Assembly: GCA_936943315.1 (NCBI GenBank)
Contig: CAKZJM010000228.1
Span: 1 to 42,618 of the forward strand
Origin: an uncultured Methylophilus sp.
GTDB taxonomy: Bacteria > Pseudomonadota > Gammaproteobacteria > Burkholderiales > Methylophilaceae
Length of the DNA: 42,618 bases
Direction: 5' to 3'
Shown here: one piece after another, positions 5,716 through 35,371 of the stretch
Layout of the letters: every line of letters begins with the position of its first letter
How positions within the stretch are numbered: the first letter of the stretch is position 1
Translations under genes and position numbers: made by a program
Notes under the pieces: model-generated
Seen by the model: the letters and a program-made list of their open reading frames with translations, nothing else
The model's database searches: none
Told to the model about the DNA's origin: nothing

Positions 5716-6900
5716 TTATTGCGTAAACGGAATCACCTGCAACCCTTTGTCTGCGGTGTTGACTGCGAGTATGGCCTTGCCCTGAAGGTTTAACCATTGC
5801 GGATAATCAAGCTTGCTGCTGCTATGCAACATGGTCACAGCGGCTCCCCAGGTACGGCCCCCATCCAGCGAGGCCATGGCGACGATGTCATAGCCTGTGC
5901 TGTCACGTTCTTGCCAGGCCACCCAAACTTTATCTTCCACACTGAGCAGGGCAGGATGGCCGGCATTTTTCTTCGCATCCCCAATGCGTCGCGGGGGTGA
6001 AGTCACCCAGGCATGGCCGTCCATGCGGGCAATGCGCAATCCCGGCTTTTCGCCAGCGCCGTCAAAATAAGCCAGGTGATAACCAAACCCCTCACCCACG
6101 GCCAGCGCCGCCCCATGATGCGGGCAGCCATCGAGTTTCCAGTGGCCATAGCTGGCGCGGACCAGGACAGGTTTGCTGGCAGGGCTGATTTCAGCCATGG
6201 CATGGTCGCGTTCGCCGCCATCAAACACATGGCGCCACAATACCGCCACCGTGCCATCTGGCTTGCTGGTCATGGCAATGCGGCAGCATTCGCAGCTACT
6301 GTCTGCCAGTTTTTGCTCAGTGCTGAAGCTTTTGCCGTGATCGTTAGACACGGCATAATAAATGGCCGCGCCCTCGTAAGGCTTACCGGCTGCTTTGGCG
6401 GCCAGCGCATCGCGTTTATCGATCCAGGCCACGGTAATATTGCCATTGGCAGCGGCTTCCAGGACATCAAAGCGGTGCGTGATTTCTTCGCGGTGCTGAT
6501 GCACGATATAGGGCGCTTCAAAACTTTTGCCGCCATCGACAGAGCGCGCAAACCAGATAAACCCGGCATAAGACTTCTTGAGCGATTCCGTCCAGGTGAC
6601 ATACACCTGGCCTTCCGCCCCCAGCGCAATGTGGGGGCGCGCTTCGGCATCGGCGGCAATCTGCATGGGGGTTGGATTGGCAGCGACCTCTTTGCCAAAG
6701 TGCTGGCCTGCATCGTCACTGGCAGACACCCACACCTGCCCATGTTTCACTTGCGCTAACCACACACGCCCGGCCTGGTCGGCGGCAACACTTACTGCCA
6801 GCGGTTGCGAAGCATGTTCGGCATGGCCATCATGTGCCTGGGCAGCAGATACCAGGCATAACACACTGGCCACCAGCCATTGAGACAGCAGCAATTTCAC
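5716..6900 (-). CDS. Periplasmic BNR/Asp-box (sialidase-like beta-propeller) protein with Cys/His motifs
   Basis: Signal peptide then HDGHAEH; Asp-boxes SDDAGQHF, SVDGGKSF, SNDHGKSF, SLDGGRTW; CECC and CPHHG motifs. GTG start at 6900 has AAGGAG 6 nt upstream. Confidence 0.8.
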   Translation of the reverse strand: MKLLLSQWLVASVLCLVSAAQAHDGHAEHASQPLAVSVAADQAGRVWLAQVKHGQVWVSASDDAGQHFGKEVAANPTPMQIAADAEARPHIALGAEGQVYVTWTESLKKSYAGFIWFARSVDGGKSFEAPYIVHQHREEITHRFDVLEAAANGNITVAWIDKRDALAAKAAGKPYEGAAIYYAVSNDHGKSFSTEQKLADSSCECCRIAMTSKPDGTVAVLWRHVFDGGERDHAMAEISPASKPVLVRASYGHWKLDGCPHHGAALAVGEGFGYHLAYFDGAGEKPGLRIARMDGHAWVTSPPRRIGDAKKNAGHPALLSVEDKVWVAWQERDSTGYDIVAMASLDGGRTWGAAVTMLHSSSKLDYPQWLNLQGKAILAVNTADKGLQVIPFTQ

Positions 6901-7039
6901 TCCTCGCTCCTTATCAAAAACACTCATTACTTTACGTGTGTTATCACAGCTTGATCTGGCTAAAGTTTGGTATCGTGAGCGCCGTTAACCCACATATCCG
7001 GGCCAACATCAAATACACCGCACCGAAGCAGATTTAACT

Positions 7040-9982
7040 ATGTCATTACCAACCGTTTTTGATCATCATAGCACAGCATGGTTGCAGCCATTGGCGGCTG
7101 CCATGCCTGAGATGCCTATGCTGGCGCTCAATCGCAGGGCTCAATACCTGTCGATCAATGCGGCTGCGCAGGCGCTGTTGGGAAATGATAGCGAAGCATT
7201 TCCCCAGGAAATCCGCACCGCCTTTTTGCAAGCAATCCGCGACAAGCAAACCGAGCTGCAACTGAGTTTCAGCCTGCGCAATTTGAAGCGCCACTTCAAA
7301 TGCCGCTTGCTTTATCCGCACGCTGGCCGCGGGGCGATTGGCCTGATGCTGGAAGAAGAAAAAACCACCCTGGCAGATCAATTGCAGCACATGCAATCCA
7401 TCGTGCACTCGTTGATTGAGATGAGTCCCGACCTGATTTGCATCAAGGACCATGAAAACCGCTGGATGATGGCCAACCAGCAGATGCTCAATACCTTTCA
7501 GATTGACGGGTTTGACTATGAGTTTTTAAACAACCTGCAAATTGCAGATACCCTGCATCCGGTGTTCCGTAACAGCTTCGAGCACCATGAAAAATCTGAC
7601 CAGCAAGTGTGGCAGACCCGCCAGGCTTACCGCAATGAAGAGCTGGTGCATTTACCCCAGGGCGGCTACAAAACCCTGGAGGTTAACAAGATTGCCTATC
7701 ACGACCAGAAAGACGAGCCTAGCCACCTGATTACGGTGGCACGTGATGTCAGTGAGCAAAAGTTTATTGAGGGCCAGCTACAAAACCGCAGCGCGGTGCT
7801 CGACACCCTGATTTCGTGTGACTGGATGCTGCACTCGGCAGAGCGCTGGCAAAGCGTGGCAGAAAACGTGCTGCAACAGTGCTGCCTGTCTTTCCGTTTC
7901 AGCCGCGCGGTATTGCTGCAACACGAAACCATTACCACCCGCAAAAAAACCGAGGTGCGTTCCAAGGTCGTGTTCCAGTGGGCCCTCAACGGCTTTCACC
8001 ACACTTATCAGCATTGGGAAAAAATTTCATTCCTGTCACCCGAGTTACAGCGCTGGTACGCCCTGCTTTCTAAAGGCCAACCAGTGATGTGTGATGCGCT
8101 GACGCTGCCCGAAGCGGAACGTGCGTTGCTCAAGTCTCACGACACCGTCAACCTGGTGATTGTGCCGCTTATGATAGACGATGAGTGGTGGGGCTCTATG
8201 GTGATTGAGCGTTGTTTTGACGCCGACAACACCAGCTCACAAGAGCTGGGTTCACTGATGGCGATTGGCCGCACACTGAGCGTGGCGATTGACCGTGAAC
8301 GCACCGGCAAGCACCTCAAGCTGGCCAAGATTGCTTTTGACAGCACCACAGAAGGCATCATGATCGTCAATCCGGCCGGGGAGCTGGTCGGCATCAACCA
8401 GGGCTATACCTTGATTACCGGGTTTGAAGAGTCAGAGGTGCTGGGTACAAAACCGCAAATTTTCAAGCAACGTCCGCGCGGCCTGTTTGGCGCCCTCAAG
8501 CGTGACGGCAAATGGTCAGGCGAGATTGAGAACGTCCGTAAAAATGGGGACAGCTACACCGAGTGGATGACCATTACCGCTGTGCGTAATCACGCCAACG
8601 TGATTACTAACTATGTCGGCGTGTTTGCAGACATCTCTGAGATGAAGCGCTCGCAAATCCAGCTCAACTCACTGGTGAACCACGACCCGTTGACCGGATT
8701 GCCAAACCGCAGGCTGATCAACCATCTGTTTACGCATGCACTCCAGCGTGCCCACCGCAATGATCATCAAGCGGCCGTGCTGTTTATTGACCTGGACCGC
8801 TTTAAAAACATTAACGATAGCCTGGGCCATTATTCTGGCGACCAGTTGCTGTTAGGCGTCAGCGAGCGGCTGCGCGCCTCATTACGCGAGTCTGACATTG
8901 TGGGCAGACTGGGTGGGGACGAGTTTATCGTGCTGCTGGAAAACCTGCATGGCAAGGCAGATGCTGCACAAAAAGCGCATGACATTCTCGATGCCATCCG
9001 GCGCGAATTCATGATTGACCATCATGAAATTTTTGTCGGCGCCAGCATCGGCATCTCCATGTATCCGCACGATGGGCAGGATGTGGAAAGCCTGATCAAA
9101 GCGGCCGACCTCGCAATGTATGAAGTAAAAAACAATGGCAAAAACCATGTGTCGTTTTACGATGCAGCCTTGAGCCGCGATGCGGTTGAACACTTCCAGC
9201 TTGAAACCGAGTTGCGCCAGGCGCTGACCAAAAACCAGCTCAAGATGTTCTACCAGGCCCAGATAGACCTGAAAACCGGCATGATTATTGGCGCTGAAGC
9301 GCTGATCCGCTGGCTACATCCGACCCAGGGCATGATTTCACCGGCCAAGTTTATTCCGCTGGCTGAAGAAACCGGCCTGATCTTGAGCATAGGCGAATGG
9401 GCGCTGACGCAAGCCGTGCGCCAGGCACATACCTGGCACAAACAACATCCTGAGTTCCAGAAAATTGCCATTAATGTCTCCGGCGTGCAGATCATGAAAA
9501 GCAAATTTGCCGATACCGTGTATGGCATCCTCATGGACAGTGAATGTGACCCGTCCATCATAGAGCTGGAGATCACAGAAAGCACACTGATGCAGCATAC
9601 CCAGCATGTGGTAGATACCTTCAACCAGCTGAAACTGCTGGGGGTGAGCATTGCCATTGACGACTTTGGCACCGGCTATTCTTCGTTGTCACACCTGAAA
9701 CGCTTACCGCTGGACCAGATCAAGATCGACCGCAGCTTTGTCAAAGACTTGCCTGACGACAAAGACGATGCGGCGATCACCAGCGCCATCTACGCCATGG
9801 CGACGCAATTGGGATTCAGCGTCGTTGCCGAAGGTGTCGAAACCGAAGAACAGGAAAAGTTTTTACAGAAACTGGGCTGCCAGACCGCGCAAGGCTTCCT
9901 GTATGCCTATCCCGTCAATGCAGATGATTTTCTGCAGTTATTAGTCTTAAATAATCAAAGAAAAATAAAACGCCATGCCTAA
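7040..9982 (+). CDS. PAS/GAF/PAS-GGDEF-EAL c-di-GMP enzyme
   Basis: HDPLTGLPNR, RESD I-site, GGDEF, AEALIRW, DDFGTGYSS; PAS and GAF-like N-terminal regions. Confidence 0.92.
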   Translation: MSLPTVFDHHSTAWLQPLAAAMPEMPMLALNRRAQYLSINAAAQALLGNDSEAFPQEIRTAFLQAIRDKQTELQLSFSLRNLKRHFKCRLLYPHAGRGAIGLMLEEEKTTLADQLQHMQSIVHSLIEMSPDLICIKDHENRWMMANQQMLNTFQIDGFDYEFLNNLQIADTLHPVFRNSFEHHEKSDQQVWQTRQAYRNEELVHLPQGGYKTLEVNKIAYHDQKDEPSHLITVARDVSEQKFIEGQLQNRSAVLDTLISCDWMLHSAERWQSVAENVLQQCCLSFRFSRAVLLQHETITTRKKTEVRSKVVFQWALNGFHHTYQHWEKISFLSPELQRWYALLSKGQPVMCDALTLPEAERALLKSHDTVNLVIVPLMIDDEWWGSMVIERCFDADNTSSQELGSLMAIGRTLSVAIDRERTGKHLKLAKIAFDSTTEGIMIVNPAGELVGINQGYTLITGFEESEVLGTKPQIFKQRPRGLFGALKRDGKWSGEIENVRKNGDSYTEWMTITAVRNHANVITNYVGVFADISEMKRSQIQLNSLVNHDPLTGLPNRRLINHLFTHALQRAHRNDHQAAVLFIDLDRFKNINDSLGHYSGDQLLLGVSERLRASLRESDIVGRLGGDEFIVLLENLHGKADAAQKAHDILDAIRREFMIDHHEIFVGASIGISMYPHDGQDVESLIKAADLAMYEVKNNGKNHVSFYDAALSRDAVEHFQLETELRQALTKNQLKMFYQAQIDLKTGMIIGAEALIRWLHPTQGMISPAKFIPLAEETGLILSIGEWALTQAVRQAHTWHKQHPEFQKIAINVSGVQIMKSKFADTVYGILMDSECDPSIIELEITESTLMQHTQHVVDTFNQLKLLGVSIAIDDFGTGYSSLSHLKRLPLDQIKIDRSFVKDLPDDKDDAAITSAIYAMATQLGFSVVAEGVETEEQEKFLQKLGCQTAQGFLYAYPVNADDFLQLLVLNNQRKIKRHA

Positions 9983-11258
9983 TCACGCCTCCGACACCTA
10001 TTACATAGACATAGACCAGCTTCAGGTCGGTCTCTACATCCACCTCGACCTGGGCTGGATGGATCATCCATTTTCGGTCAGCAACTTTAAGATCACGGAT
10101 GAAGCGCAAATTGAGACTTTGAAATCCTTAGGCTTGAAGCAACTGCGTTATGATCCGCGACGCAGTTCGAGCACGCCATTGAGGAGCGCCGCCTACCAGA
10201 ATGTGGTTGAGTTTCCGCTCAAAAAAGCGCTGGGCGCTAAACTGGAAGTCATAGACGATGTGCCGGAGTTGAGTCCCGCACAGAAAAAACAGCTGGCGCT
10301 GAGGCAAGCCATTGCCGACAGTGAACACAAGTTCATGAAGACCAGCTCTGAAGTGAAAACCATCCAGAAACTCTCGACCGAGCGCCCGGAACAGGCGTAT
10401 GGCCTGGCGGCAAAACTGGTTGAAGACCTGGTAAACAGCACGCTCACAGAAGGCGAGGTTGCGATTCACGCCATGAATGGTCACCGCGTGGGCGACCAGC
10501 ATTTTCAGCATGAGCTTAACACCCTGGTGGTGTCTTTGCTGCTGGCTAAAAACCTCGATATTACCGACGATGATGCGGTGGTGCTTGGCATGGCAGCCAT
10601 TTTGCATGACATCGGCAAACGTCAGATCAGCGATAAAATCCTGCTCAAAAAAGACCCGCTCAGCGTCCGCGAAACGGCGATTTACCAGACCCATGTCCTG
10701 CTTGGCCTGAATATGCTGCGGGATGTGGCAGTGCCTAGAAGGATACTAACTCTGATTTCGCAGCATCATGAGTTTGCCGATGGTAGCGGCTACCCTAAAG
10801 GCCTGAATTGTGATCAGATCGACCCGTTATCGCATATCCTGATCATTGCCAACATGTACGATAACCTGTGCAACCCATCCAACCCGGCATTCACCAAAAC
10901 CCCTTATGAAGCCTTAAGCATGATGTTTGCACAACAAAGGCACCAGTTTGACCAGTCTATTTTGCGCCGCTTTATCAAGTGCCTGGGCATTTACCCGCCC
11001 GGCAGCGTGGTGCGTCTGTCAGACCAGAAACTGGCCACCGTGCTCTCGACCAACCCGCAACAACCTTTGCGGCCGTTTATACAGATGTTGAGCGATGACC
11101 GCGAAGAAGAAGGCGAGATTATTGACCTGAGGGAAGCCCTGGATATCAATATCATCCAATGCCTGAAACCAGAGCAATTGCCCAATGCGCTGCAAAGAAT
11201 CTTGCGTTTAAAACAGCGTACCAGCTATTTCCTGGACAAGATTTACGCAGCCTCTTAA
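9975..11258 (+). CDS. HD-GYP phosphodiesterase with DUF3391-like N-terminus
   Basis: LQVGLYIHLDLGWMDHPF N-terminus; HDIGK; HHEFADGSGYPKG; GIYPPGS; overlaps the upstream gene by 8 nt. Confidence 0.88.
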   Translation: MPNHASDTYYIDIDQLQVGLYIHLDLGWMDHPFSVSNFKITDEAQIETLKSLGLKQLRYDPRRSSSTPLRSAAYQNVVEFPLKKALGAKLEVIDDVPELSPAQKKQLALRQAIADSEHKFMKTSSEVKTIQKLSTERPEQAYGLAAKLVEDLVNSTLTEGEVAIHAMNGHRVGDQHFQHELNTLVVSLLLAKNLDITDDDAVVLGMAAILHDIGKRQISDKILLKKDPLSVRETAIYQTHVLLGLNMLRDVAVPRRILTLISQHHEFADGSGYPKGLNCDQIDPLSHILIIANMYDNLCNPSNPAFTKTPYEALSMMFAQQRHQFDQSILRRFIKCLGIYPPGSVVRLSDQKLATVLSTNPQQPLRPFIQMLSDDREEEGEIIDLREALDINIIQCLKPEQLPNALQRILRLKQRTSYFLDKIYAAS

Positions 11259-11297: not shown

Positions 11298-12773
11298 CTA
11301 CCCACGCTTCTTCGCAAACAGATAGGCGCCCAGCAGTCCGGTCAGGCTCACCGCCAGCGCGGCCAGGATAGCCAGCACGTCACGCACATCCTTGCTGACT
11401 GACTGCACACTCCACTTGTGCAGATAAGCAAACACAAAACCTTCCAGGCCATCGGTATCATTGATGCTAGCAGCCAGCGTGCCTGTAGCAGGTTCTACAT
11501 ATAGCCTTGTATGGTCAGCCTGGCTAGTTTGCACTTTCAGCACAGGCAAGCGTTTAAAAACAAACCCATACTCATTGGCAAATGCCGTCACCCAGCCTAC
11601 AGAAACAATCCCAGGCAATGTTTTTCCAGCGATCACATTGACCCACTCGCCAGCATAGGTTTCAGGGGTCAATGCAGTCACGAGCTGGTGGCGCGTCATC
11701 CATAACATGGGTGCCGGGGGCGCGGCTGACGGGTCACCATGATGATGCATGGCAGCCACTTGTGCCGAAGGCACTCCATCCATCCCAGTAGTCACAGGAA
11801 TGATTTGCCAGAACAGCGCTTCCCCACGGCCATAAATATCCAGCTTGAGTATTTTTCCTGTAGCCAATTGCGACCAGGCTTGCAGACTCAAAGCAGAGCC
11901 ATCAGCCACGAATGCTGTGGCCTGTAAAGGCCTGCGCTGCTGGATGTCTGACATCCACAAATGAAACAACCCGGAACTCGCCAATAACAGAATGACCAGT
12001 GAAACCCATCCCCCAAACTCGCGATGCCACCATTGCACGCCCCAGCGCTTCAAGCGATAAGGTGCCGTTTTGCGTTGCTTGATGTAAAGGGTGATCCCGG
12101 TGACTGCCGATGCAAGAATCAAAATCAACACCGTGGTCGCCACGGCCAGTTGCAGTCTGGAACAAGCTTGCAGGAACGACCAGTTATGACCCCATTGAAA
12201 TACCTTGGTCAAAAATGCCCGCCTGTCATCGACCAAGGTCGCTAAGCGCGATTGCTCGGTATCAATATAAGCACGCAAGCCATCCTCGCTGGCATAAGCC
12301 ACCCGCCAAACGGGTAGCAAGCGGTTGACCGGATGGTAATCCGGTGCAAAGTCGGTCACAGCCTCGACTGCGCGCACCGACGATGCATCACGCCCGGTGT
12401 AATAATTGGCTAGGCTGATCGCCGCGGCCCGCTCGGCGTCTGTACGCTCTTGACCATTCACCACTGAAAAATACCTGACCGCATCGGACAACGCGACCCG
12501 GTAGTATGCTTCACCATCCAGATGCACCAGACTGATATGCCGAAACTGCGTGATCGCCTGTTGCTGCAGCAATGCTGGCAGAGACACTGCCTGGCTTAAA
12601 TCGACTGGCGCCAATGGCGGCATAAACTGTTTAGGTGCTGGTTGTAAACGACTCATGATGGGATGCGACGCTCCAGACAAGCCCCACAACACCATACCGA
12701 CACAGGCAATCACGCCTATCCATTGATGCCAAAATAACCAGCGATTTTTAAGCGAGGATGACTTAATGACCAT
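11298..12773 (-). CDS. PepSY-associated TM helix membrane protein
   Basis: WHQWIG...LWGLSG, HNW, WHR and LHKW conserved His-bearing helices. ATG at 12773 has a GGAG SD and overlaps the upstream gene. Confidence 0.85.
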   Translation of the reverse strand: MVIKSSSLKNRWLFWHQWIGVIACVGMVLWGLSGASHPIMSRLQPAPKQFMPPLAPVDLSQAVSLPALLQQQAITQFRHISLVHLDGEAYYRVALSDAVRYFSVVNGQERTDAERAAAISLANYYTGRDASSVRAVEAVTDFAPDYHPVNRLLPVWRVAYASEDGLRAYIDTEQSRLATLVDDRRAFLTKVFQWGHNWSFLQACSRLQLAVATTVLILILASAVTGITLYIKQRKTAPYRLKRWGVQWWHREFGGWVSLVILLLASSGLFHLWMSDIQQRRPLQATAFVADGSALSLQAWSQLATGKILKLDIYGRGEALFWQIIPVTTGMDGVPSAQVAAMHHHGDPSAAPPAPMLWMTRHQLVTALTPETYAGEWVNVIAGKTLPGIVSVGWVTAFANEYGFVFKRLPVLKVQTSQADHTRLYVEPATGTLAASINDTDGLEGFVFAYLHKWSVQSVSKDVRDVLAILAALAVSLTGLLGAYLFAKKRG

Positions 12774-13239
12774 GAGCGTCTCCATGCATATCATGGGCTA
12801 TCGACGACACCGGCTGACCCTTGCTAAATTTCACTACTCCTTTAAAACTGTCTATCCGCTGACGCTGATCCTCGGCCAGACCCTGTTCTTGCTTTTGCAG
12901 CCGTGCCACCAGTGTCTGCGCATCGGCTGCAGCCATCCCGGCCGCCTCCAAATGGCTGGATACGGTCAACTCCGCGCCACCACAAAGCAAAGTATGCCAA
13001 TGCTGATGGGCTGGATGATATTTTAATAATGCGCGCCCGCCTTTATCGCCTTGAATCCAGTCAGCAATCGCCATGCCCTGGTGTATGACAATCACTGGCA
13101 GCGTTAATGGCTGATTTGGTTTATCCCAGGTTTCATGCATTTCGGTTGCCACCGATTGTTCGTCTGCTGCTGAGTGAGCATGCGCTGTAGCAATGTTTAG
13201 CAGCATTAAAAACAGGCTAAATTTCAACATCCATTTCAT
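12763..13239 (-). CDS. Copper uptake system-associated periplasmic protein
   Basis: Signal peptide; WDKP...AIADWIQGDKGGRALL...LCGG...SFKG pattern recalled for the family found beside copper chaperones/methanobactin uptake loci; His-rich tail HDMHGDAHGH. Confidence 0.7.
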   Translation of the reverse strand: MKWMLKFSLFLMLLNIATAHAHSAADEQSVATEMHETWDKPNQPLTLPVIVIHQGMAIADWIQGDKGGRALLKYHPAHQHWHTLLCGGAELTVSSHLEAAGMAAADAQTLVARLQKQEQGLAEDQRQRIDSFKGVVKFSKGQPVSSIAHDMHGDAHGH

Positions 13240-13255
13240 TCAAATACTCCATCGT

Positions 13256-13276
13256 CCGGGGTGCCATGCACCCCGG
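13256..13276. other. Intercistronic GC hairpin after the TonB receptor gene
   Basis: CCGGGGTGC-CAT-GCACCCCGG perfect 9-bp stem with no U tract; probably an mRNA stability element. Confidence 0.55.
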
Positions 13277-13283
13277 TCTATCG

Positions 13284-15344
13284 CTAATAGGTCCAGGTCA
13301 CACCCAGGTAAGCTGTGCGGCCATCGCCTGGCAGGAACAAGGCACCATCTGCACCATTCTGGTTTCTGGCAACGCCAGTCGTAGCGGCATATTTCTGGTT
13401 AGCCAGATTGCGGCCCTCAACGAACCATGACCAATGCGGGTTGATTTTCTGTCCGGCTTTAACACCCCACAGAAAATAACTGTCTGCATACAAGGTTTCT
13501 GCAAAGTCCACGTTGTAGCGCTGTGGCGACCATTCTATGGTCGGGCCGATATAGAAATTTTCGAGTACATCACTGCCACGGTAAACCAACTCGGCACGGA
13601 GTAATGAGCGCTGGATACCCGGCAAGCGATTGCTGCCAAAAGTCGGGTCGTTATCCAGTTTGAAGTCATTAATCAACAGGCTGGAGCGCCATTGCAAGCT
13701 ATAAGGCAAACGCGCAGTGAGTCCAAACTCCAGGCCGCGGTGTATGGTTTTACCTGCGTTAATGGTTTGTGAAGCCACCGGGGAGCCTGCCGCTGCCACG
13801 GCAAGTAACTCATCCTGCAAGCGGGCATGATAGAGGGCAATATCCCAGTCGACAAACTCGGTATTGCCTCGCGAACCAACTTCAAACGTGGTGCCTTTTT
13901 GTGCCTTGAGGCTGCTCACCACCAGGCTGTTTAACTCGCCAAAACTCGGTGGCTCAAAGCTACGTGAGGCATTAGCAAACAGTTGAACCTGAGGTTGCAA
14001 CTGATACAGCACACCCAGTTTGGGGCTGGTCTGGCTATAGGTCTTATCTACGCTCTGATTACCGCTGGCAGTAATCAGTTGGTCTTGGGAATCACGTTTG
14101 GATTTAGCATATTGCATCCCGGCAATTAGCGTCCACTGTTCGTCCAGGCTCAGGCGATCCTCTAGATAAGTTTCGAAGTTGGTGGCTTTCTGGTCAAAGT
14201 CGTTGAGTAATGCGCCACGTCTGGCATTCACGTTTTGATAGTTTTTGGCGTCAGTGCGGCCACTGGTTGGGGAGAGGCCCGCGACAAACTCGTTCTTGAG
14301 GCCGAACAACTCGCCAACATGGCTCCAGCGAGCGGTTAAGCCAATGTCATAAGACGCCTGGTCAATCACACCAGTGGTATCGCCAAAGTTACCAATGGGG
14401 TGAAACAGCGTCTTGCGTGCATAAAACGCGCCTAATTCGAGTTTGCTCTGGTCAAACAGAATGGTGGTTTTATTGGCCAGCCTGGCGACATTGATATTGC
14501 GCTCGTTGATTCCCTGGCCTGGGATCACGGTTGCCTGTTTGGGATCATCTTTTAACTGGGCCTTGGTCAAACTGCTTGAAAGCTGCGAGTCATTATTGAC
14601 ATAGCCGAAGTAAAAACGCGTTTCGACCTGGTCATTAATCTTGACACCGACATTTCCGGTCAGGCGGTCTGCCCCTTGCTGAGCGTTGTCCCTAAAACTA
14701 TCTGTGTGGTATTTGCTGGCAGCCACAAAATAATCCACGTTTTCTTTTACGCCGCCAGTGCTGACGCCAAGACGATAATAACCATAGCTGCCGCCTTCGG
14801 TTTTCACTTCCAGCGCCGGGGCTGTGTAACCTGTACGGGAAATAAAGTTAATACTGCCGCCCAAATTACTTGAGCCATATTGCAAGGCATTTGCGCCACG
14901 ATACACTTCAATATAATCGGTGGCCATCGGGTCGATTGCAGGGAAATCAAAACCGCCATCGGCCAGGTTTGTTGGAATGCCATCTTGCATCAGCTTTAAC
15001 CCACGACCATGAAAGGTACGCTGCAAACCAGACCCGCGAATCGACAAGCGGGTTTCTTCGGCACCAAAACGTGATTGTGCCAAAACGCCGGTCGCCATGC
15101 CCAGTGTATCCTGCATATTGCTGGTACGGCCTTCGCGCACGGTCTCCATATTGACCACTGTGGTGCCGCCTGCGGTTTTAGACAGGTTTTCTTTTGCCGT
15201 TTCAATATCCGGCTGTGTCAGTGACGCTTTGTTTTTCTTTGCCACTACTTTGACTTCATCAAGATGTACTGTGCCCTCATGCTCGGCGTGCGCCATGTAA
15301 GGCATCGCCGCCAGAATCGCCAGGCAGATTTTTGTTTTATTCAT
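13284..15344 (-). CDS. TonB-dependent outer-membrane receptor
   Basis: Signal peptide, TonB-box-like DEVKVVA, plug motifs SIRGSG...DGIP...IEVYRGANALQYG...GGSINF, NLANQKY, C-terminal GRTAYLGVTWTY. Confidence 0.95.
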   Translation of the reverse strand: MNKTKICLAILAAMPYMAHAEHEGTVHLDEVKVVAKKNKASLTQPDIETAKENLSKTAGGTTVVNMETVREGRTSNMQDTLGMATGVLAQSRFGAEETRLSIRGSGLQRTFHGRGLKLMQDGIPTNLADGGFDFPAIDPMATDYIEVYRGANALQYGSSNLGGSINFISRTGYTAPALEVKTEGGSYGYYRLGVSTGGVKENVDYFVAASKYHTDSFRDNAQQGADRLTGNVGVKINDQVETRFYFGYVNNDSQLSSSLTKAQLKDDPKQATVIPGQGINERNINVARLANKTTILFDQSKLELGAFYARKTLFHPIGNFGDTTGVIDQASYDIGLTARWSHVGELFGLKNEFVAGLSPTSGRTDAKNYQNVNARRGALLNDFDQKATNFETYLEDRLSLDEQWTLIAGMQYAKSKRDSQDQLITASGNQSVDKTYSQTSPKLGVLYQLQPQVQLFANASRSFEPPSFGELNSLVVSSLKAQKGTTFEVGSRGNTEFVDWDIALYHARLQDELLAVAAAGSPVASQTINAGKTIHRGLEFGLTARLPYSLQWRSSLLINDFKLDNDPTFGSNRLPGIQRSLLRAELVYRGSDVLENFYIGPTIEWSPQRYNVDFAETLYADSYFLWGVKAGQKINPHWSWFVEGRNLANQKYAATTGVARNQNGADGALFLPGDGRTAYLGVTWTY

Positions 15345-15416
15345 GTTGTATTCCCTTATTTTTGTACGTCATATGCACTGCCTGACATCAAGCAAGCAGT
15401 GCAACCACCTTAAACA

Positions 15417-15665
15417 TCACGCCGCAATCACATGCCTGGCAGTCTGTTCTGGTTGCCAGCGGATCAAGGCACTGATGTCGCAATCAAAGTAATTGCAGAG
15501 TTTGCTGAGGTGCTCGGTGCAGGCGTTGTAGGCAGGATTTTTAACCATGCGGTGCAAGGTCATGCGGCTGATGCCGGTGGATTCGGCGACTTCTTTGAGG
15601 GTGATGTGGCGTTTCCACTCCACCTGTTTGGCAAATATCATTGCCTGTAGATTGATAATAATCAT
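15417..15665 (-). CDS. XRE/Cro-C1-type helix-turn-helix transcriptional regulator
   Basis: ITLKEVAESTGISRMTLHRM HTH and LSKLCNYFDCDISALI; GGAG SD 7 nt upstream of the ATG. Confidence 0.85.
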   Translation of the reverse strand: MIIINLQAMIFAKQVEWKRHITLKEVAESTGISRMTLHRMVKNPAYNACTEHLSKLCNYFDCDISALIRWQPEQTARHVIAA

Positions 15666-15729
15666 GTGATGACTCCATTCATGCCTGTGTCGCAGGCAGA
15701 CTCATAAGCCGTCAAACCAACTGACGGAG

Positions 15730-16164
15730 TTAGACTGAGTGTGGAGTCAGCGGGGGCGCGCGTGAGAGATGCGCAGTAGGATAAACACTTGAAACAACAG
15801 GTGGCTGATATTCGCTTAACGCGATCTGCGCCTGTGCTTTTTGAAACAGAATATATGAAGGGTTATGCGCTGGAATAGTGGCCTGGTCCAATGCCATCTG
15901 ACAGAACGGGCAATGGCTAAGGTGGTGGCTTAATGAGGCCGGTTTTTGCGAAGGCTGATAATCAATCAGGGTGGAGCGCCACTTGCCCTGGGTGGTCATG
16001 ACCTGAATGACCAGCTTGCTGCCTTGCGAAGAGCACACCTCTTGCACAAAGGTTTTACCACTTTGCATCGGGAAAGCTACAGTCAGTGTTGGCATAAGCG
16101 TAGCGAGCATGATTGCCATCAAGGCCATGCGTGCCATCCAACGTTGAAATTTGACCGTTCCCAT
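15730..16164 (-). CDS. DUF2946 family CruR/CutF-like regulatory leader protein (CxxC plus RAPP)
   Basis: N-terminal signal/TM segment, EVCS, HHLSHCPFC, Pro-rich linker, C-terminal SRAPP; heads a TonB receptor operon. Confidence 0.88.
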   Translation of the reverse strand: MGTVKFQRWMARMALMAIMLATLMPTLTVAFPMQSGKTFVQEVCSSQGSKLVIQVMTTQGKWRSTLIDYQPSQKPASLSHHLSHCPFCQMALDQATIPAHNPSYILFQKAQAQIALSEYQPPVVSSVYPTAHLSRAPPLTPHSV

Positions 16165-16226
16165 TCCGGCATTTTAACGACAATCCTTTAGAATAGACAA
16201 GAATTTCCATTGATACAGGACAAACC

Positions 16227-17114
16227 ATGGCCGGATCCAGCCTGCTGGCATTACTTGATGACATCACTACCATGCTCGACGACGTGTCGGTCATGAGCCA
16301 ACTGGCCGCCAAAAAAACAGCGGGGGTGCTGGGTGATGACCTGGCGCTCAATGCGCAACAGGTGACCGGCATTGCCGCAAAACGGGAGCTACCTGTGGTG
16401 TGGGCGGTGGCCAGGGGGTCGTTTATCAATAAGCTGATGCTGGTTCCGGCTGCCTTATTGATCAGCGCTTTTTTGCCTTGGTTGATTACACCGCTACTGA
16501 TGCTGGGCGGTGCGTTTTTATGTTTTGAAGGCTTTGAAAAAATCTGGCACAAACTGCATGCGGATCACGCGCATGATCAGGCGGTACATACGGCCATGCA
16601 AGACCCGCAAACAGACCTGGTGGCGCTGGAGCAAGAAAAAATCAAGGGTGCAGTCCGCACTGACTTTATCCTTTCAGCCGAAATTATCGTGATTGCCTTG
16701 GGCGTAGTCGCCGAAGCCGCGCTCACGCAACGTATTCTGGTGCTGTCTTTGATTGCGGTGTTGATGACCATAGGCGTCTATGGCCTGGTGGCACTGATAG
16801 TTAAAATGGATGACATCGGTTTATGGCTCATGCAGCGCCAGGGCAATCATCTGTTATCCCAATCCACACGCAAGTTGGGGTGGGGGTTGGTGCAAATTGT
16901 GCCTTACCTCATGCGCTTGCTGAGCATCTTGGGCACGGCGGCCATGTTCCTGGTCGGGGGCGGCATCATCGTCCACGGCATCCATCCCTTACACACCGTG
17001 GTTGAACAGTTTGCCTCATGGGCATGGCTGATCAACGCAGCCGTGGGCGTGCTTGCTGGCGCAGTCTGTTTTGGATTAATATACATCGTGAAATTAATTA
17101 TCGAAAAGAACTAG
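16227..17114 (+). CDS. DUF808/YedI family inner membrane protein
   Basis: [49 protein letters not shown]. Confidence 0.92.
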
Positions 17115-33961: not shown

Positions 33962-35371
33962 ATGACTTCACACCGTAGCAAACCCATCATCCCGATTGTG
34001 GCAGCGCCCGTCACTGAGCAAACCATTTCGCTTTACCAGAAAACCCGCAAAGTCTATCCGCGCTCGGTCAGCGGCTATTTTAAAAACTGGCGCTGGCTCA
34101 TGATCTGGCTGACCCAACTGGTGTTTTACGGCATGCCCTGGCTGCAATACGGTGATCGGCAGGCGGTTTTACTTGATCTCAATGCGCATCGCTTCTACCT
34201 GTTTGGCGTGGTGATCTTTCCGCAGGATTTGTTTTACCTAGCGTTGCTGTTGATTGTCTGTGCCCTCGGCCTGTTTCTGTTTACCGCAGTGGCCGGGCGG
34301 CTATGGTGCGGTTTCTCCTGCCCGCAATCGGTCTACACAGAACTCTTTTTATGGATGGAGCGCACGATAGAGGGTGACCGCATGGCCAGGCAAAAACTGG
34401 ACGCACAATCCTGGGGCTTGCGCAAAACCGGTATCAAAGCCAGTAAACATAGCGCCTGGCTGGTTTTTTCATTGGTAACCGGATTTACCTTTGTCGGCTA
34501 CTTTACCCCTATCCGTGACTTACTGGTCGACGTGCAACAAGGACAATTGGGGGACTGGTCTTTCTTCTGGCTGGGCTTCTACAGCCTGGCGACCTACGGC
34601 AATGCGGGGTTTTTACGCGAGCAGGTGTGCAAACACATGTGCCCTTATGCCCGCTTTCAAAGCGCTATGTTCGACAACCATACCCTGATTGTGGCGTATG
34701 ACAGCGCACGCGGTGAACCCCGTGGCGGCCGCAGCAAAAGCCAGGACTACCAGGCGCAGGGCCTGGGCTCATGCATAGATTGCAATATTTGTGTGCAGGT
34801 GTGTCCGGTAGGCATCGATATCCGCAATGGCTTGCAATATGAGTGCATTAGTTGCGGCCTGTGTATTGATGCCTGCAATGACGTGATGGACAAAATGCAG
34901 TATCCGAGAGACTTGATCCGCTTTTCCGCGGCGGGCTTGAGCGGCCAGCACCAGTTAAGCAAGCACCTGTTACGCCCGCGCGTACTCATTTACAGCGGAC
35001 TATTTCTACTGATTACGGGCTGGATGGTCTACGGGCTGCTGCACAAACCGGACTTCAAGGTCGATGTCATGCGTGACCGCAATATCATGTACCGTGAAAC
35101 GGCGCAGGGCGTAGAGAACCTGTATCAGTTACACCTAACCAATGCGACTGAACACACGCAGCGCTACCAACTGCGGGCTACCGGCCTGGACGGGCTTAAA
35201 GTAGAAAGTGAGCAGACACTGACTGCGGGGCCCACAGAAGAGATATTGTTGCCGGTGAGCCTGGCCTTACCCGCCAGCGAGCAGCGTGGCAGCCAGCGCA
35301 TCAAGATCGAGGTGACTGCGCTCGCCAATGGCGAAACCGTGACGACAGACAGCACCTTCTACCTCCCCTGA
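33962..35371 (+). CDS. ccoG: Cytochrome c oxidase accessory protein CcoG/FixG (membrane 4Fe-4S protein)
   Basis: GRLWCGFSCPQ, REQVCKHMCPY, CIDCNICVQVCP, CISCGLCIDAC, C-terminal Ig-like domain. Confidence 0.95.
   Translation: MTSHRSKPIIPIVAAPVTEQTISLYQKTRKVYPRSVSGYFKNWRWLMIWLTQLVFYGMPWLQYGDRQAVLLDLNAHRFYLFGVVIFPQDLFYLALLLIVCALGLFLFTAVAGRLWCGFSCPQSVYTELFLWMERTIEGDRMARQKLDAQSWGLRKTGIKASKHSAWLVFSLVTGFTFVGYFTPIRDLLVDVQQGQLGDWSFFWLGFYSLATYGNAGFLREQVCKHMCPYARFQSAMFDNHTLIVAYDSARGEPRGGRSKSQDYQAQGLGSCIDCNICVQVCPVGIDIRNGLQYECISCGLCIDACNDVMDKMQYPRDLIRFSAAGLSGQHQLSKHLLRPRVLIYSGLFLLITGWMVYGLLHKPDFKVDVMRDRNIMYRETAQGVENLYQLHLTNATEHTQRYQLRATGLDGLKVESEQTLTAGPTEEILLPVSLALPASEQRGSQRIKIEVTALANGETVTTDSTFYLP

What the first reader, a model, noticed from the sequence alone, without database searches (positions are those of the whole stretch)
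11298..16164. Ribosome-arrest-controlled putative copper acquisition operon
Seen: co-oriented DUF2946 leader (HHLSHCPFC...RAPP), HTH regulator, TonB receptor, His-tailed periplasmic protein, PepSY-TM protein with an MHHH loop. Established: DUF2946 proteins CruR (Bordetella pertussis) and CutF (Rhodobacter capsulatus) are exported leader proteins with CxxC and Pro-rich arrest motifs that control downstream copper genes post-transcriptionally. Inference: this is a copper-scavenging system, perhaps importing a Cu-ligand complex made by other organisms, since no chalkophore synthesis genes are in the window.
Basis: partly seen in the sequence, partly recalled or inferred. Interest (0 to 1): 0.72.

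Follow-up and report, generated by a model that had tools for sequence, protein, structure and literature searches.

The report
Copper-starvation leader gating a small regulator
A methanol-eating bacterium carries a five-gene cluster, likely for copper uptake, headed by a known kind of ribosome-stalling leader gene; the unusual part is that the gene right behind the leader, whose ribosome-binding site is predicted to be uncovered by stalling, encodes a small DNA-binding protein that stays attached to the leader across the bacterial family while the transport genes behind it are swapped.

Summary
Observation confirmed: five co-oriented genes (DUF2946 leader, XRE-type HTH, TonB receptor, NF033672 protein, PepSY_TM) in a Methylophilus-like genome. 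The leader meets every sequence criterion of CruR (CxxC, RAPP, spacer 46). The receptor is neither CrtA nor PqqU: it is a homologue (34% over 664 aa) of Caulobacter TccA, a receptor needed for aa3 oxidase, and keeps its predicted copper-binding His pair. So the core is a known kind: a likely copper-starvation uptake operon feeding heme-copper oxidases. Variant features: (1) a covarying RNA junction pairs the codons just after RAPP with the HTH ribosome-binding site, a CutF-like gate on a CruR-like leader; (2) leader plus HTH is a fixed cassette (30 of the 30 best family loci) ahead of changing cargo, while 28 HTH relatives outside the family show no leader; (3) the leader mRNA looks leaderless. 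No operator or target of the HTH was found. The 'ligand made by others' idea has no support: the genome encodes two copper-peptide clusters of its own. The scan noted a similar leader-plus-small-HTH layout before on other DNA (nitrite oxidisers, different HTH type).

The parts
16171..16200 (-). Predicted sigma-70 promoter (TTGTCT-18-TAAAAT); -10 ends 6 nt before the leader's ATG, so the mRNA is likely leaderless
   Evidence: a -10-like hexamer 5-9 nt before the start in 47 of 55 family leaders versus 63 of 999 genome ORFs
15730..16164 (-). DUF2946 / CruR-type leader, 144 aa: hydrophobic N-terminus (13-31), CPFC (15912-15901), RAPP (15762-15751)
15742..15749 (-). Anti-Shine-Dalgarno TGACTCCA, starting 1 nt after the RAPP codons, inside the footprint expected of a ribosome stalled on RAPP
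   Evidence: stall position from PMC12992588 (passages)
15670..15749 (-). Predicted three-way RNA junction; outer stem closes on the HTH Shine-Dalgarno TGGAGTCA (15677-15670)
   Evidence: z -2.33; 92% of 495 cells paired; covariation 0.151 vs 0.083 shuffled
15417..15665 (-). XRE/Cro-C1 HTH protein, 82 aa, stand-alone DNA-binding domain; C-rich coding strand
15372..15404 (-). Hairpin between HTH and receptor, no U-tract; hairpins of differing sequence occur here in most Methylophilus copies by eye
   Evidence: (z -1.22, not significant)
13284..15344 (-). TonB-dependent receptor, TccA homologue, 686 aa; His112 (15011-15009) and His315 (14402-14400) match TccA His116/His321
12763..13239 (-). NF033672 copper uptake system-associated protein, 158 aa, signal peptide-like start, invariant Cys86, His-rich tail; likely periplasmic copper carrier
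11298..12794 (-). PepSY_TM protein, 498 aa, four predicted TM helices, invariant His23/44/203/257/278/459; likely heme-dependent periplasmic reductase
5716..6927 (-). BNR-repeat protein, a likely separated member: homologues (48-61% identical) lie directly inside leader-headed operons of relatives; here two oppositely oriented c-di-GMP genes lie between

Best explanation
This is likely a copper-starvation uptake operon in which a CruR-type leader is predicted to stall its ribosome at RAPP when copper is scarce, which would uncover the ribosome-binding site of the HTH gene and let the TccA-type receptor, carrier and reductase genes be expressed. Steps: (1) shown: gene order, family identities, CxxC/RAPP spacing, His pair, complementary anti-SD/SD sequences. 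(2) Inferred from CruR: without copper the ribosome stalls with the RAPP prolines in the P and A sites; with copper, binding to CPFC releases it. (3) Predicted here: the stalled ribosome covers the anti-SD, so the HTH gene is translated; once the ribosome leaves, the junction closes on the SD and the C-rich, now untranslated RNA would be open to Rho, shutting off the genes behind. (4) Inferred from TccA, CrtA and CrpH: the receptor would bring Cu(II), probably in small-molecule complexes, into the periplasm through its His pair; the PepSY_TM protein would reduce it; the His-tailed protein would hold it for the PCuAC/Sco chaperones that metallate the aa3 and cbb3 oxidases encoded elsewhere. (5) Least certain: the HTH protein, made only when copper is scarce, most likely acts as a transcription regulator (feedback on this operon or control of other copper-sparing genes); no target was found.
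For: Leader passes Pfam cut-off and CruR spacing (PMC9426467). Receptor vs the gene bounded by both published tccA primers (L147): 34% over 664 aa, E 3e-107, His116/His321 align with His112/His315; that gene also follows a leader and precedes PepSY_TM, PCuAC-like and Sco-like ORFs. His pair invariant in 27 of 27 aligned homologues; second His absent in 8 of 8 weaker homologues that lack such neighbours. Of the 21 best phylum-wide loci, 14 have an xPP-ending leader and 3 more a DUF1775-PCuAC gene within 1.5 kb upstream. Leader-receptor-NF033672 trio annotated on a Bradyrhizobium plasmid. In the family, 24 of 29 receptor loci have a leader directly upstream. RNA gate: covariation above all 500 shuffles; blocking the stall footprint lowers the cost of opening the next RBS by >1 kcal/mol in 49 of 55 leaders, against 5 of 55 for a footprint 12 codons upstream; window 10.7 to 5.7; native anti-SD beats its shuffles in 52 of 55. 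C>G windows in leader and HTH are in the top 0.4% of coding windows. Genome has two COX1-family genes, a CuA subunit, PCuAC and Sco.
Against: No expression or binding data for copper in this organism. Direction of control is borrowed from CruR; CutF uses the same kind of hairpin with the opposite sign. Mean SD pairing probability fell only from 0.74 to 0.65 when the footprint was blocked in 24 RAPP-HTH loci, so other pairings partly replace the stem. The outer stem has one double-sided change only, the 20 rows are close kin and the structure was derived from one of them. The genome's second cassette fails the shuffle test (L002). C>G windows were picked as maxima and proline codons inflate C. 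TccA's copper site is itself a prediction and the tccA mutant showed no change in cell copper (PMC12617631). 34% identity does not prove the same substrate; the nearest solved structure is the PQQ receptor. No operator found. 14 of 55 leaders end in QAPP and 4 in HAPP, whose stalling is untested.
Confidence: 0.72

Rival explanations
1. Same copper operon, but control is purely CruR-like Rho termination and the HTH is a passenger or a mere translated spacer, not a regulator of anything.
For: Strong C>G windows at 15980-15903, 15800-15723 and 15580-15503. Many family leaders drive the receptor with no HTH (HTH in 8 of 29 receptor loci). Outside relatives of the HTH sit beside integrase-like and restriction-modification ORFs (by eye), so it may be a mobile-element relic. 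No operator found; no co-occurrence with cydA (13 of 29 HTH-positive vs 49 of 101 HTH-negative genomes).
Against: HTH kept in 53 of 201 family genomes, directly behind the leader in 30 of 30 best loci despite at least five kinds of cargo; recognition helix ISRMTL nearly invariant; 241 synonymous vs 137 non-synonymous codon differences over 14 pairs; leader and HTH duplicated together in this genome.
Confidence: 0.12
2. The receptor imports an organic compound (PQQ, or a chalkophore such as methanobactin made by neighbours) rather than loosely bound copper.
For: Best solved relatives by sequence and fold are PqqU/YncD (156 bits; TM 0.84); NF033672's short name refers to methanobactin clusters; no MbnB above cut-off in the genome; CrtA imports chelated copper and a xenometallophore model is open for it (PMC12914433).
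Against: PqqU model score 199 vs cut-off 1200; PqqU lacks both His (alignment); the TccA match (329 bits) is far stronger than the PqqU match and TccA acts in pure culture and is bypassed by CuSO4 (PMC12617631); the genome makes its own copper-peptide maturases.
Confidence: 0.1
3. The leader works with CutF polarity (metal induces stalling, operon on at high copper) or senses another metal (Zn, Ni, Co) through its extra histidines.
For: Short gap (64 nt) and SD-shielding hairpin are CutF traits (PMC9973294); HHLSH before the CxxC; a Caulobacter table lists DUF2946 genes among zinc-regulator-affected genes (PMC4176598, passage).
Against: CxxC with 45-46 spacing in all 55 leaders is the CruR signature; cargo are importers and copper chaperones, not oxidases or efflux pumps; the DUF2946-headed pcu operon is induced by copper starvation (as cited in PMC9426467, PMC12617631).
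Confidence: 0.06

Closest known systems
cruR-crtA(bfrG)-crpH operon of Bordetella pertussis (PMC9426467; PMC12914433; PMC13038864)
   Same: DUF2946 leader first, CxxC and RAPP about 45 residues apart, C>G bubble, TonB receptor and PepSY_TM behind, heme-copper oxidases in the genome.
   Different: Receptor is not CrtA; an HTH gene and an NF033672 gene are added; gap 64 nt not 162; SD-shielding junction; start likely leaderless (CruR has a 45-nt 5' UTR).
TccA (CCNA_03615) locus of Caulobacter vibrioides (PMC12617631)
   Same: Receptor 34% identical over its length with the same His pair; leader-like ORF before and PepSY_TM after.
   Different: Caulobacter has no HTH or NF033672 gene there and has PCuAC and Sco in the operon; its PepSY_TM shows no significant BLASTP match to this one; its leader lacks CxxC/RAPP (CPF...PPTGPP). 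The paper's main text has no occurrence of CruR or DUF2946.
cutF-cutO of Rhodobacter capsulatus (PMC9973294; 10.1101/2025.02.05.636593)
   Same: Exported leader whose stalled ribosome opens a stem over the next gene's SD; short gap.
   Different: CutF has CxxxC, stalls with copper and switches on a detoxifying oxidase; here the motif and cargo point to the opposite sign.
pcuABCDE of Bradyrhizobium (seen only as cited in PMC9426467, PMC12617631, PMC6669012; original paper not held)
   Same: Copper-starvation operon headed by a DUF2946 gene with a TonB receptor and PCuAC; locus L109 has that layout with a homologue of this receptor.

Membership tests
DUF2946 / CruR | Pfam PF11162 above cut-off | tested here: met
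   44 bits vs 23.7
DUF2946 / CruR | CxxC and C-terminal RAPP, 45 +/- 2 residues apart | tested here: met
   CPFC 85-88, RAPP 135-138, 46 between; criterion from PMC9426467
DUF2946 / CruR | N-terminal export signal; first gene of operon | tested here: met
   hydropathy peak 13-31 (no signal-peptide predictor run); upstream gene is divergent
DUF2946 / CruR | C>G bubble at the leader's 3' end | tested here: met
   C-G excess 0.218 at 15800-15723, top 0.25% of 42,758 coding windows
DUF2946 / CruR | Stalling relieved by copper; Rho-dependent shut-off | not testable with these tools
   needs toeprinting and bicyclomycin tests
CutF | CxxxC motif; multicopper oxidase downstream | tested here: not met
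   CxxC; HTH and receptor downstream
CutF | Stem-loop shielding the next gene's SD | tested here: met
   predicted and covarying; not shown experimentally
TccA-type receptor (no formal family definition seen) | Full-length homology and the His116/His321 pair | tested here: met
   34% over 664 aa, His112/His315 aligned
TccA-type receptor (no formal family definition seen) | PCuAC and Sco genes adjacent | tested here: not met
   both elsewhere in this genome; PCuAC adjacent in relatives such as L042
TccA-type receptor (no formal family definition seen) | Needed for aa3 oxidase activity, bypassed by copper | not testable with these tools
   needs a knockout
CrtA | Same sequence cluster; 707-911 residues | tested here: not met
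   686 aa; 38.8 bits against PDB 9rvq (taken to be CrtA from its 732 residues and two entries; inference), against 156 for PqqU
PqqU / YncD | NCBIfam NF041535 cut-off | tested here: not met
   199 bits vs 1200
OprC | Conserved Cys/Met copper site (motif recalled, from no call) | tested here: not met
   only Cys is in the signal region; no conserved Cys or Met column; TIGR01778 not among the 25 of 26 hits shown
PepSY_TM reductases (FoxB, CrpH) | PF03929, four TM helices, two His on each membrane face | tested here: met
   37.5 bits vs 28.8; TM at 25-43, 216-234, 264-282, 473-491; His23, 203, 257, 459 invariant in 8 of 8
CrpH subfamily | Membership of the CrpH sequence cluster | not tested
   CrpH sequence not available; no significant match to the PepSY_TM of the TccA locus
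NF033672 copper uptake system-associated protein | NCBIfam cut-off | tested here: met
   114.3 bits vs 50
XRE / Cro-C1 HTH (PF13443) | Pfam cut-off; sequence-specific DNA binding | tested here: inconclusive
   49 bits vs 22; no operator found

The most novel reading that the evidence does not exclude
The leader-HTH pair is a two-step copper switch: a ribosome-stalling sensor turns on a transcription factor captured from a mobile element, and that factor runs a copper-starvation regulon in Methylophilaceae, including the copper-free cytochrome bd oxidase that lies divergent from the cassette in several genomes. It would be an arrest peptide standing in for a metal-sensing transcription factor in a copper-scarcity response.
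Probability: 0.25. Interest if true: 0.75.

Novelty: new variant of a known kind. Interest (0 to 1): 0.47.

Why it matters
How Gram-negative bacteria get copper for respiration, and how they sense its lack, is still thinly known. This locus ties two lines of work together: TccA, found genetically with no regulator named, belongs to a widespread receptor family that mostly sits behind DUF2946-type leaders and carries a testable His pair. It also offers a harmless, culturable model where a CruR-type leader appears to use a CutF-type RNA gate, and where the gated gene is a DNA-binding protein, which would extend arrest-peptide control from one operon to a regulon. The known core keeps the score moderate.

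Tried and rejected
Operator search: palindromes in 150 nt upstream of 34 HTH-linked and 13 other leaders gave only TTCTA-N12-TAGAA in 11 close kin, which is the pair of back-to-back -10 boxes; palindromes upstream of 20 cydA genes gave FNR boxes in 6 (FNR consensus recalled). HTH-cydA co-occurrence: none (13 of 29 vs 49 of 101). RNA runs: in 4 of 5 RNA runs laid (2 studies) the leader lay on a separate contig of higher depth than the receptor (87 vs 47, 316 vs 13, 91 or more vs 28-32, 22 vs 3), in the fifth the leader was mostly uncovered; one run of unknown kind was flat at about 50; but contigs of the unknown-kind runs break at the same places and contig depth cannot rank genes, so this is not used as evidence. 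Pairing-probability version of the unmasking test was weak and is reported against. Solved-structure searches for the NF033672 and PepSY_TM proteins gave nothing significant; the Atlas only returned the same family name. The receptor model (pLDDT 88) gave no coordinates, so the His112-His315 distance was not measured. CrtA, PqqU and OprC membership rejected (see tests). Terminator scan found no site between leader, HTH and receptor on the coding strand. The pcuABCDE paper is not held. Literature searches for NF033672 terms, arrest peptide + XRE, Methylophilaceae + copper + TonB and TccA + CruR listed no paper describing this cassette; Fig. 7 of PMC9426467 and File S1 of PMC9973294 (neighbour families) could not be seen and might list HTH neighbours.
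Full report
1. Observation. The five genes are present as described on the - strand between 16164 and 11298, with gaps of 64, 72, 44 and -32 nt. Families: DUF2946, HTH_26, Plug plus TonB barrel, NF033672, PepSY_TM, each above its curated cut-off. The closest named records for the receptor are Methylophilus (87-94% identity). The genome is 2.96 Mb, 94% complete.

2. The leader. CPFC and RAPP are 46 residues apart; CruR has 45 and tolerates one or two more or fewer (PMC9426467; I read parts 1-4 of 7: abstract, introduction, results, discussion, start of methods, and searched its supplements, whose table lists Methylophilus proteins). Among 57 distinct leaders found in loci L001-L076, 55 had a callable next gene (2 dropped); all 55 have spacers of 45 or 46; 34 end in RAPP, 3 in RGPP, 14 in QAPP, 4 in HAPP. 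A -10-like hexamer lies 5-9 nt (mostly 6) before the start codon in 47 of 55, against 63 of 999 genome ORFs, so the mRNA likely starts at the ATG. C>G windows at the leader's end and within the HTH gene are in the top 0.4% of coding windows (windows chosen as maxima).

3. The RNA gate. From RAPP to the HTH start the RNA folds into a three-way junction whose outer stem pairs UGACUCCA (15749-15742) with the SD UGGAGUCA (15677-15670) (z -2.33, 3 of 200 shuffles as good). In 20 Methylophilus copies 92% of 495 cells pair, 5 of 25 pairs have double-sided changes, covariation 0.151 against 0.083 (0 of 500 shuffles), and slid partners give 31-37%; the rows are kin and the outer stem has one double change. 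CruR stalls with the two prolines in the P and A sites (PMC12992588, passages), which puts the anti-SD under the ribosome. Blocking that footprint lowers the energy to open the next RBS by more than 1 kcal/mol in 49 of 55 leaders (35 of 39 before an HTH, 14 of 16 before other genes); a control footprint does so in 5 of 55. The native segment closes the RBS better than its shuffles in 52 of 55; the genome's second cassette is one of the three failures. Against: pairing probability of the SD window dropped little on average. This gate is what CutF uses (PMC9973294, passages and sections 11-12; 10.1101/2025.02.05.636593, passages), while CruR was described as Rho-controlled. The two can be joined: an untranslated C-rich HTH message would invite Rho. 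That joint reading is inference.

4. The receptor. Against solved structures the best match is PqqU/YncD (156 bits; 26% in the fold search), and the entry taken to be CrtA scores 38.8 bits. Alignment of 27 homologues showed invariant His112 (plug) and His315 (barrel). PMC12617631 (passages and supplement hits) reports TccA, needed for aa3 oxidase and bypassed by CuSO4, with a predicted site His116/His321. The gene in L147 begins and ends with that paper's two primers, has His at 116 and 321, and is 34% identical over 664 aa with the His pairs aligned. It follows a leader-like ORF and precedes PepSY_TM-, PCuAC- and Sco-like ORFs. Phylum-wide, 45 of 401 genomes match at 1e-40; of the 21 best loci fetched, 14 have an xPP-ending leader upstream, 3 more a DUF1775-PCuAC gene, 2 a PepSY_TM or cupredoxin gene, 2 nothing of the kind (7 of 13 leaders scanned match DUF2946, 4 above cut-off). 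The next 8 loci show no leader by eye and lack the second His. In the family, 33 of 151 genomes have it; 24 of 29 fetched loci have a leader directly upstream, and within 1.5 kb 8 have the HTH, 12 the NF033672 gene, 16 this PepSY_TM.

5. The two downstream proteins. The NF033672 protein keeps Cys86 and a His tail in 10 of 10 and sits behind leader and receptor on a Bradyrhizobium plasmid too; a carrier role is inference. The PepSY_TM has four predicted helices and the His pattern of FoxB and CrpH (PMC13038864, parts 1, 3, 4 of 7), but is a separate lineage from the PepSY_TM of the TccA locus. CrtA's import of chelated copper is from PMC12914433 (parts 1-4 of 8).

6. The HTH. It is found in 53 of 201 family genomes, 70 places. 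I fetched the 30 best, one per genome: all 30 have a leader directly upstream (26 by pattern, 4 HAPP by eye). Cargo differs: this receptor, an OprC-like receptor, PEP-CTERM pairs, Cys-rich outer-membrane proteins, other receptors. The own genome has a second leader-HTH cassette (C226) and a third, leaderless copy (C291); the two leaderless copies examined nest inside the family clade (100/99), which stands apart from 28 outside relatives (80 columns, weak inner resolution). None of those 28 (19 from 400 class genomes, 9 from 401 order genomes) showed a leader; many lie by integrase-like or restriction-modification ORFs (by eye). I infer capture of a mobile-element HTH by the leader in this family. 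No operator was found. cydAB lies beside a leader in 6 of 7 regions that I picked because their coordinates were close, three times divergent from leader-HTH, and in 1 of 13 regions not so picked; presence of cydA does not track the HTH, and FNR boxes account for the palindromes. A DUF2946 gene numbered next to a GntR regulator gene appears unremarked in a Caulobacter table (PMC4176598, passage), so leaders before regulators are not unique.

7. Genome context. Two COX1-family genes, a CuA subunit, cytochrome bd, PCuAC, Sco, an azurin-like protein and a multicopper oxidase are present. There is no MbnB above cut-off, but BufB-type (379 vs 310) and HvfB-type (387 vs 360) maturases.

8. Verdict. 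A real, conserved operon of a known kind (CruR leader, TccA-type receptor, PepSY_TM), with variant features not found in my searches: the RNA gate on a CruR-type leader and the fixed leader-HTH head. Look-ups by sequence, place and family words found nothing for this cassette. Also seen: 10.1101/072470 (one passage, DUF2946 cofit with a copper receptor) and PMC6669012 (passages). Interest 0.47; new variant of a known kind.

Noticed in passing
L003:3695-8386 (G000:C226): Second leader-HTH cassette (54% and 68% identical) heading two PEP-CTERM proteins (one with CAPGGMMGAVCM) and a receptor with CPNHMNP, best NCBIfam hit TIGR01778 below cut-off. In G169 (L155) these genes and the window's three cargo genes form one operon. 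The PEP-CTERM pair may be surface copper-binding proteins.
   Followed up: partly
window 7040-11258: A GGDEF-EAL gene and an HD-GYP gene on the opposite strand lie between PepSY_TM and the BNR gene; in other genera BNR follows the copper cargo directly and clpB comes next, so these two look inserted.
   Followed up: partly
window 16227-17114: DUF808 gene divergent from the leader, sharing a 62-nt promoter region with back-to-back -10-like boxes; the pairing recurs across several family genera.
   Followed up: partly
L160, L161, L162, L169 (divergent); L164, L165, L166 (co-oriented): Cytochrome bd genes next to leader-headed operons, fitting a copper-starvation neighbourhood; a small unannotated ORF precedes cydA in most.
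   Followed up: partly
L148:1040-3552 and L149:421-3302: Two copper-peptide (bufferin/Hvf-type) clusters in the own genome with Cys-rich precursors; L149 has an ECF sigma factor.
   Followed up: partly
L013, L014, L017, L020, L026, L028, L062, L065, L070: Leaders ending PPxQAPP or PPSHAPP in place of RAPP with the same CxxC spacing; whether they stall is open.
   Followed up: no
G000:C155:10155-10469 and C352:1683-2117: Two more short RAPP-ending ORFs with export-like N-termini (one CxxC, one His-rich) that Pfam DUF2946 did not pick up.
   Followed up: no
L076:1360-1650 (G000:C291): Leaderless paralogue of the HTH (53%) between a YihY-like and a TPR gene near pgsA and uvrC; a like copy in G034.
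   Followed up: partly
window 33962-35371: FixG/CcoG-type ferredoxin, 17 kb from the operon; CcoG overlaps in function with CrpH in PMC13038864 (abstract).
   Followed up: no
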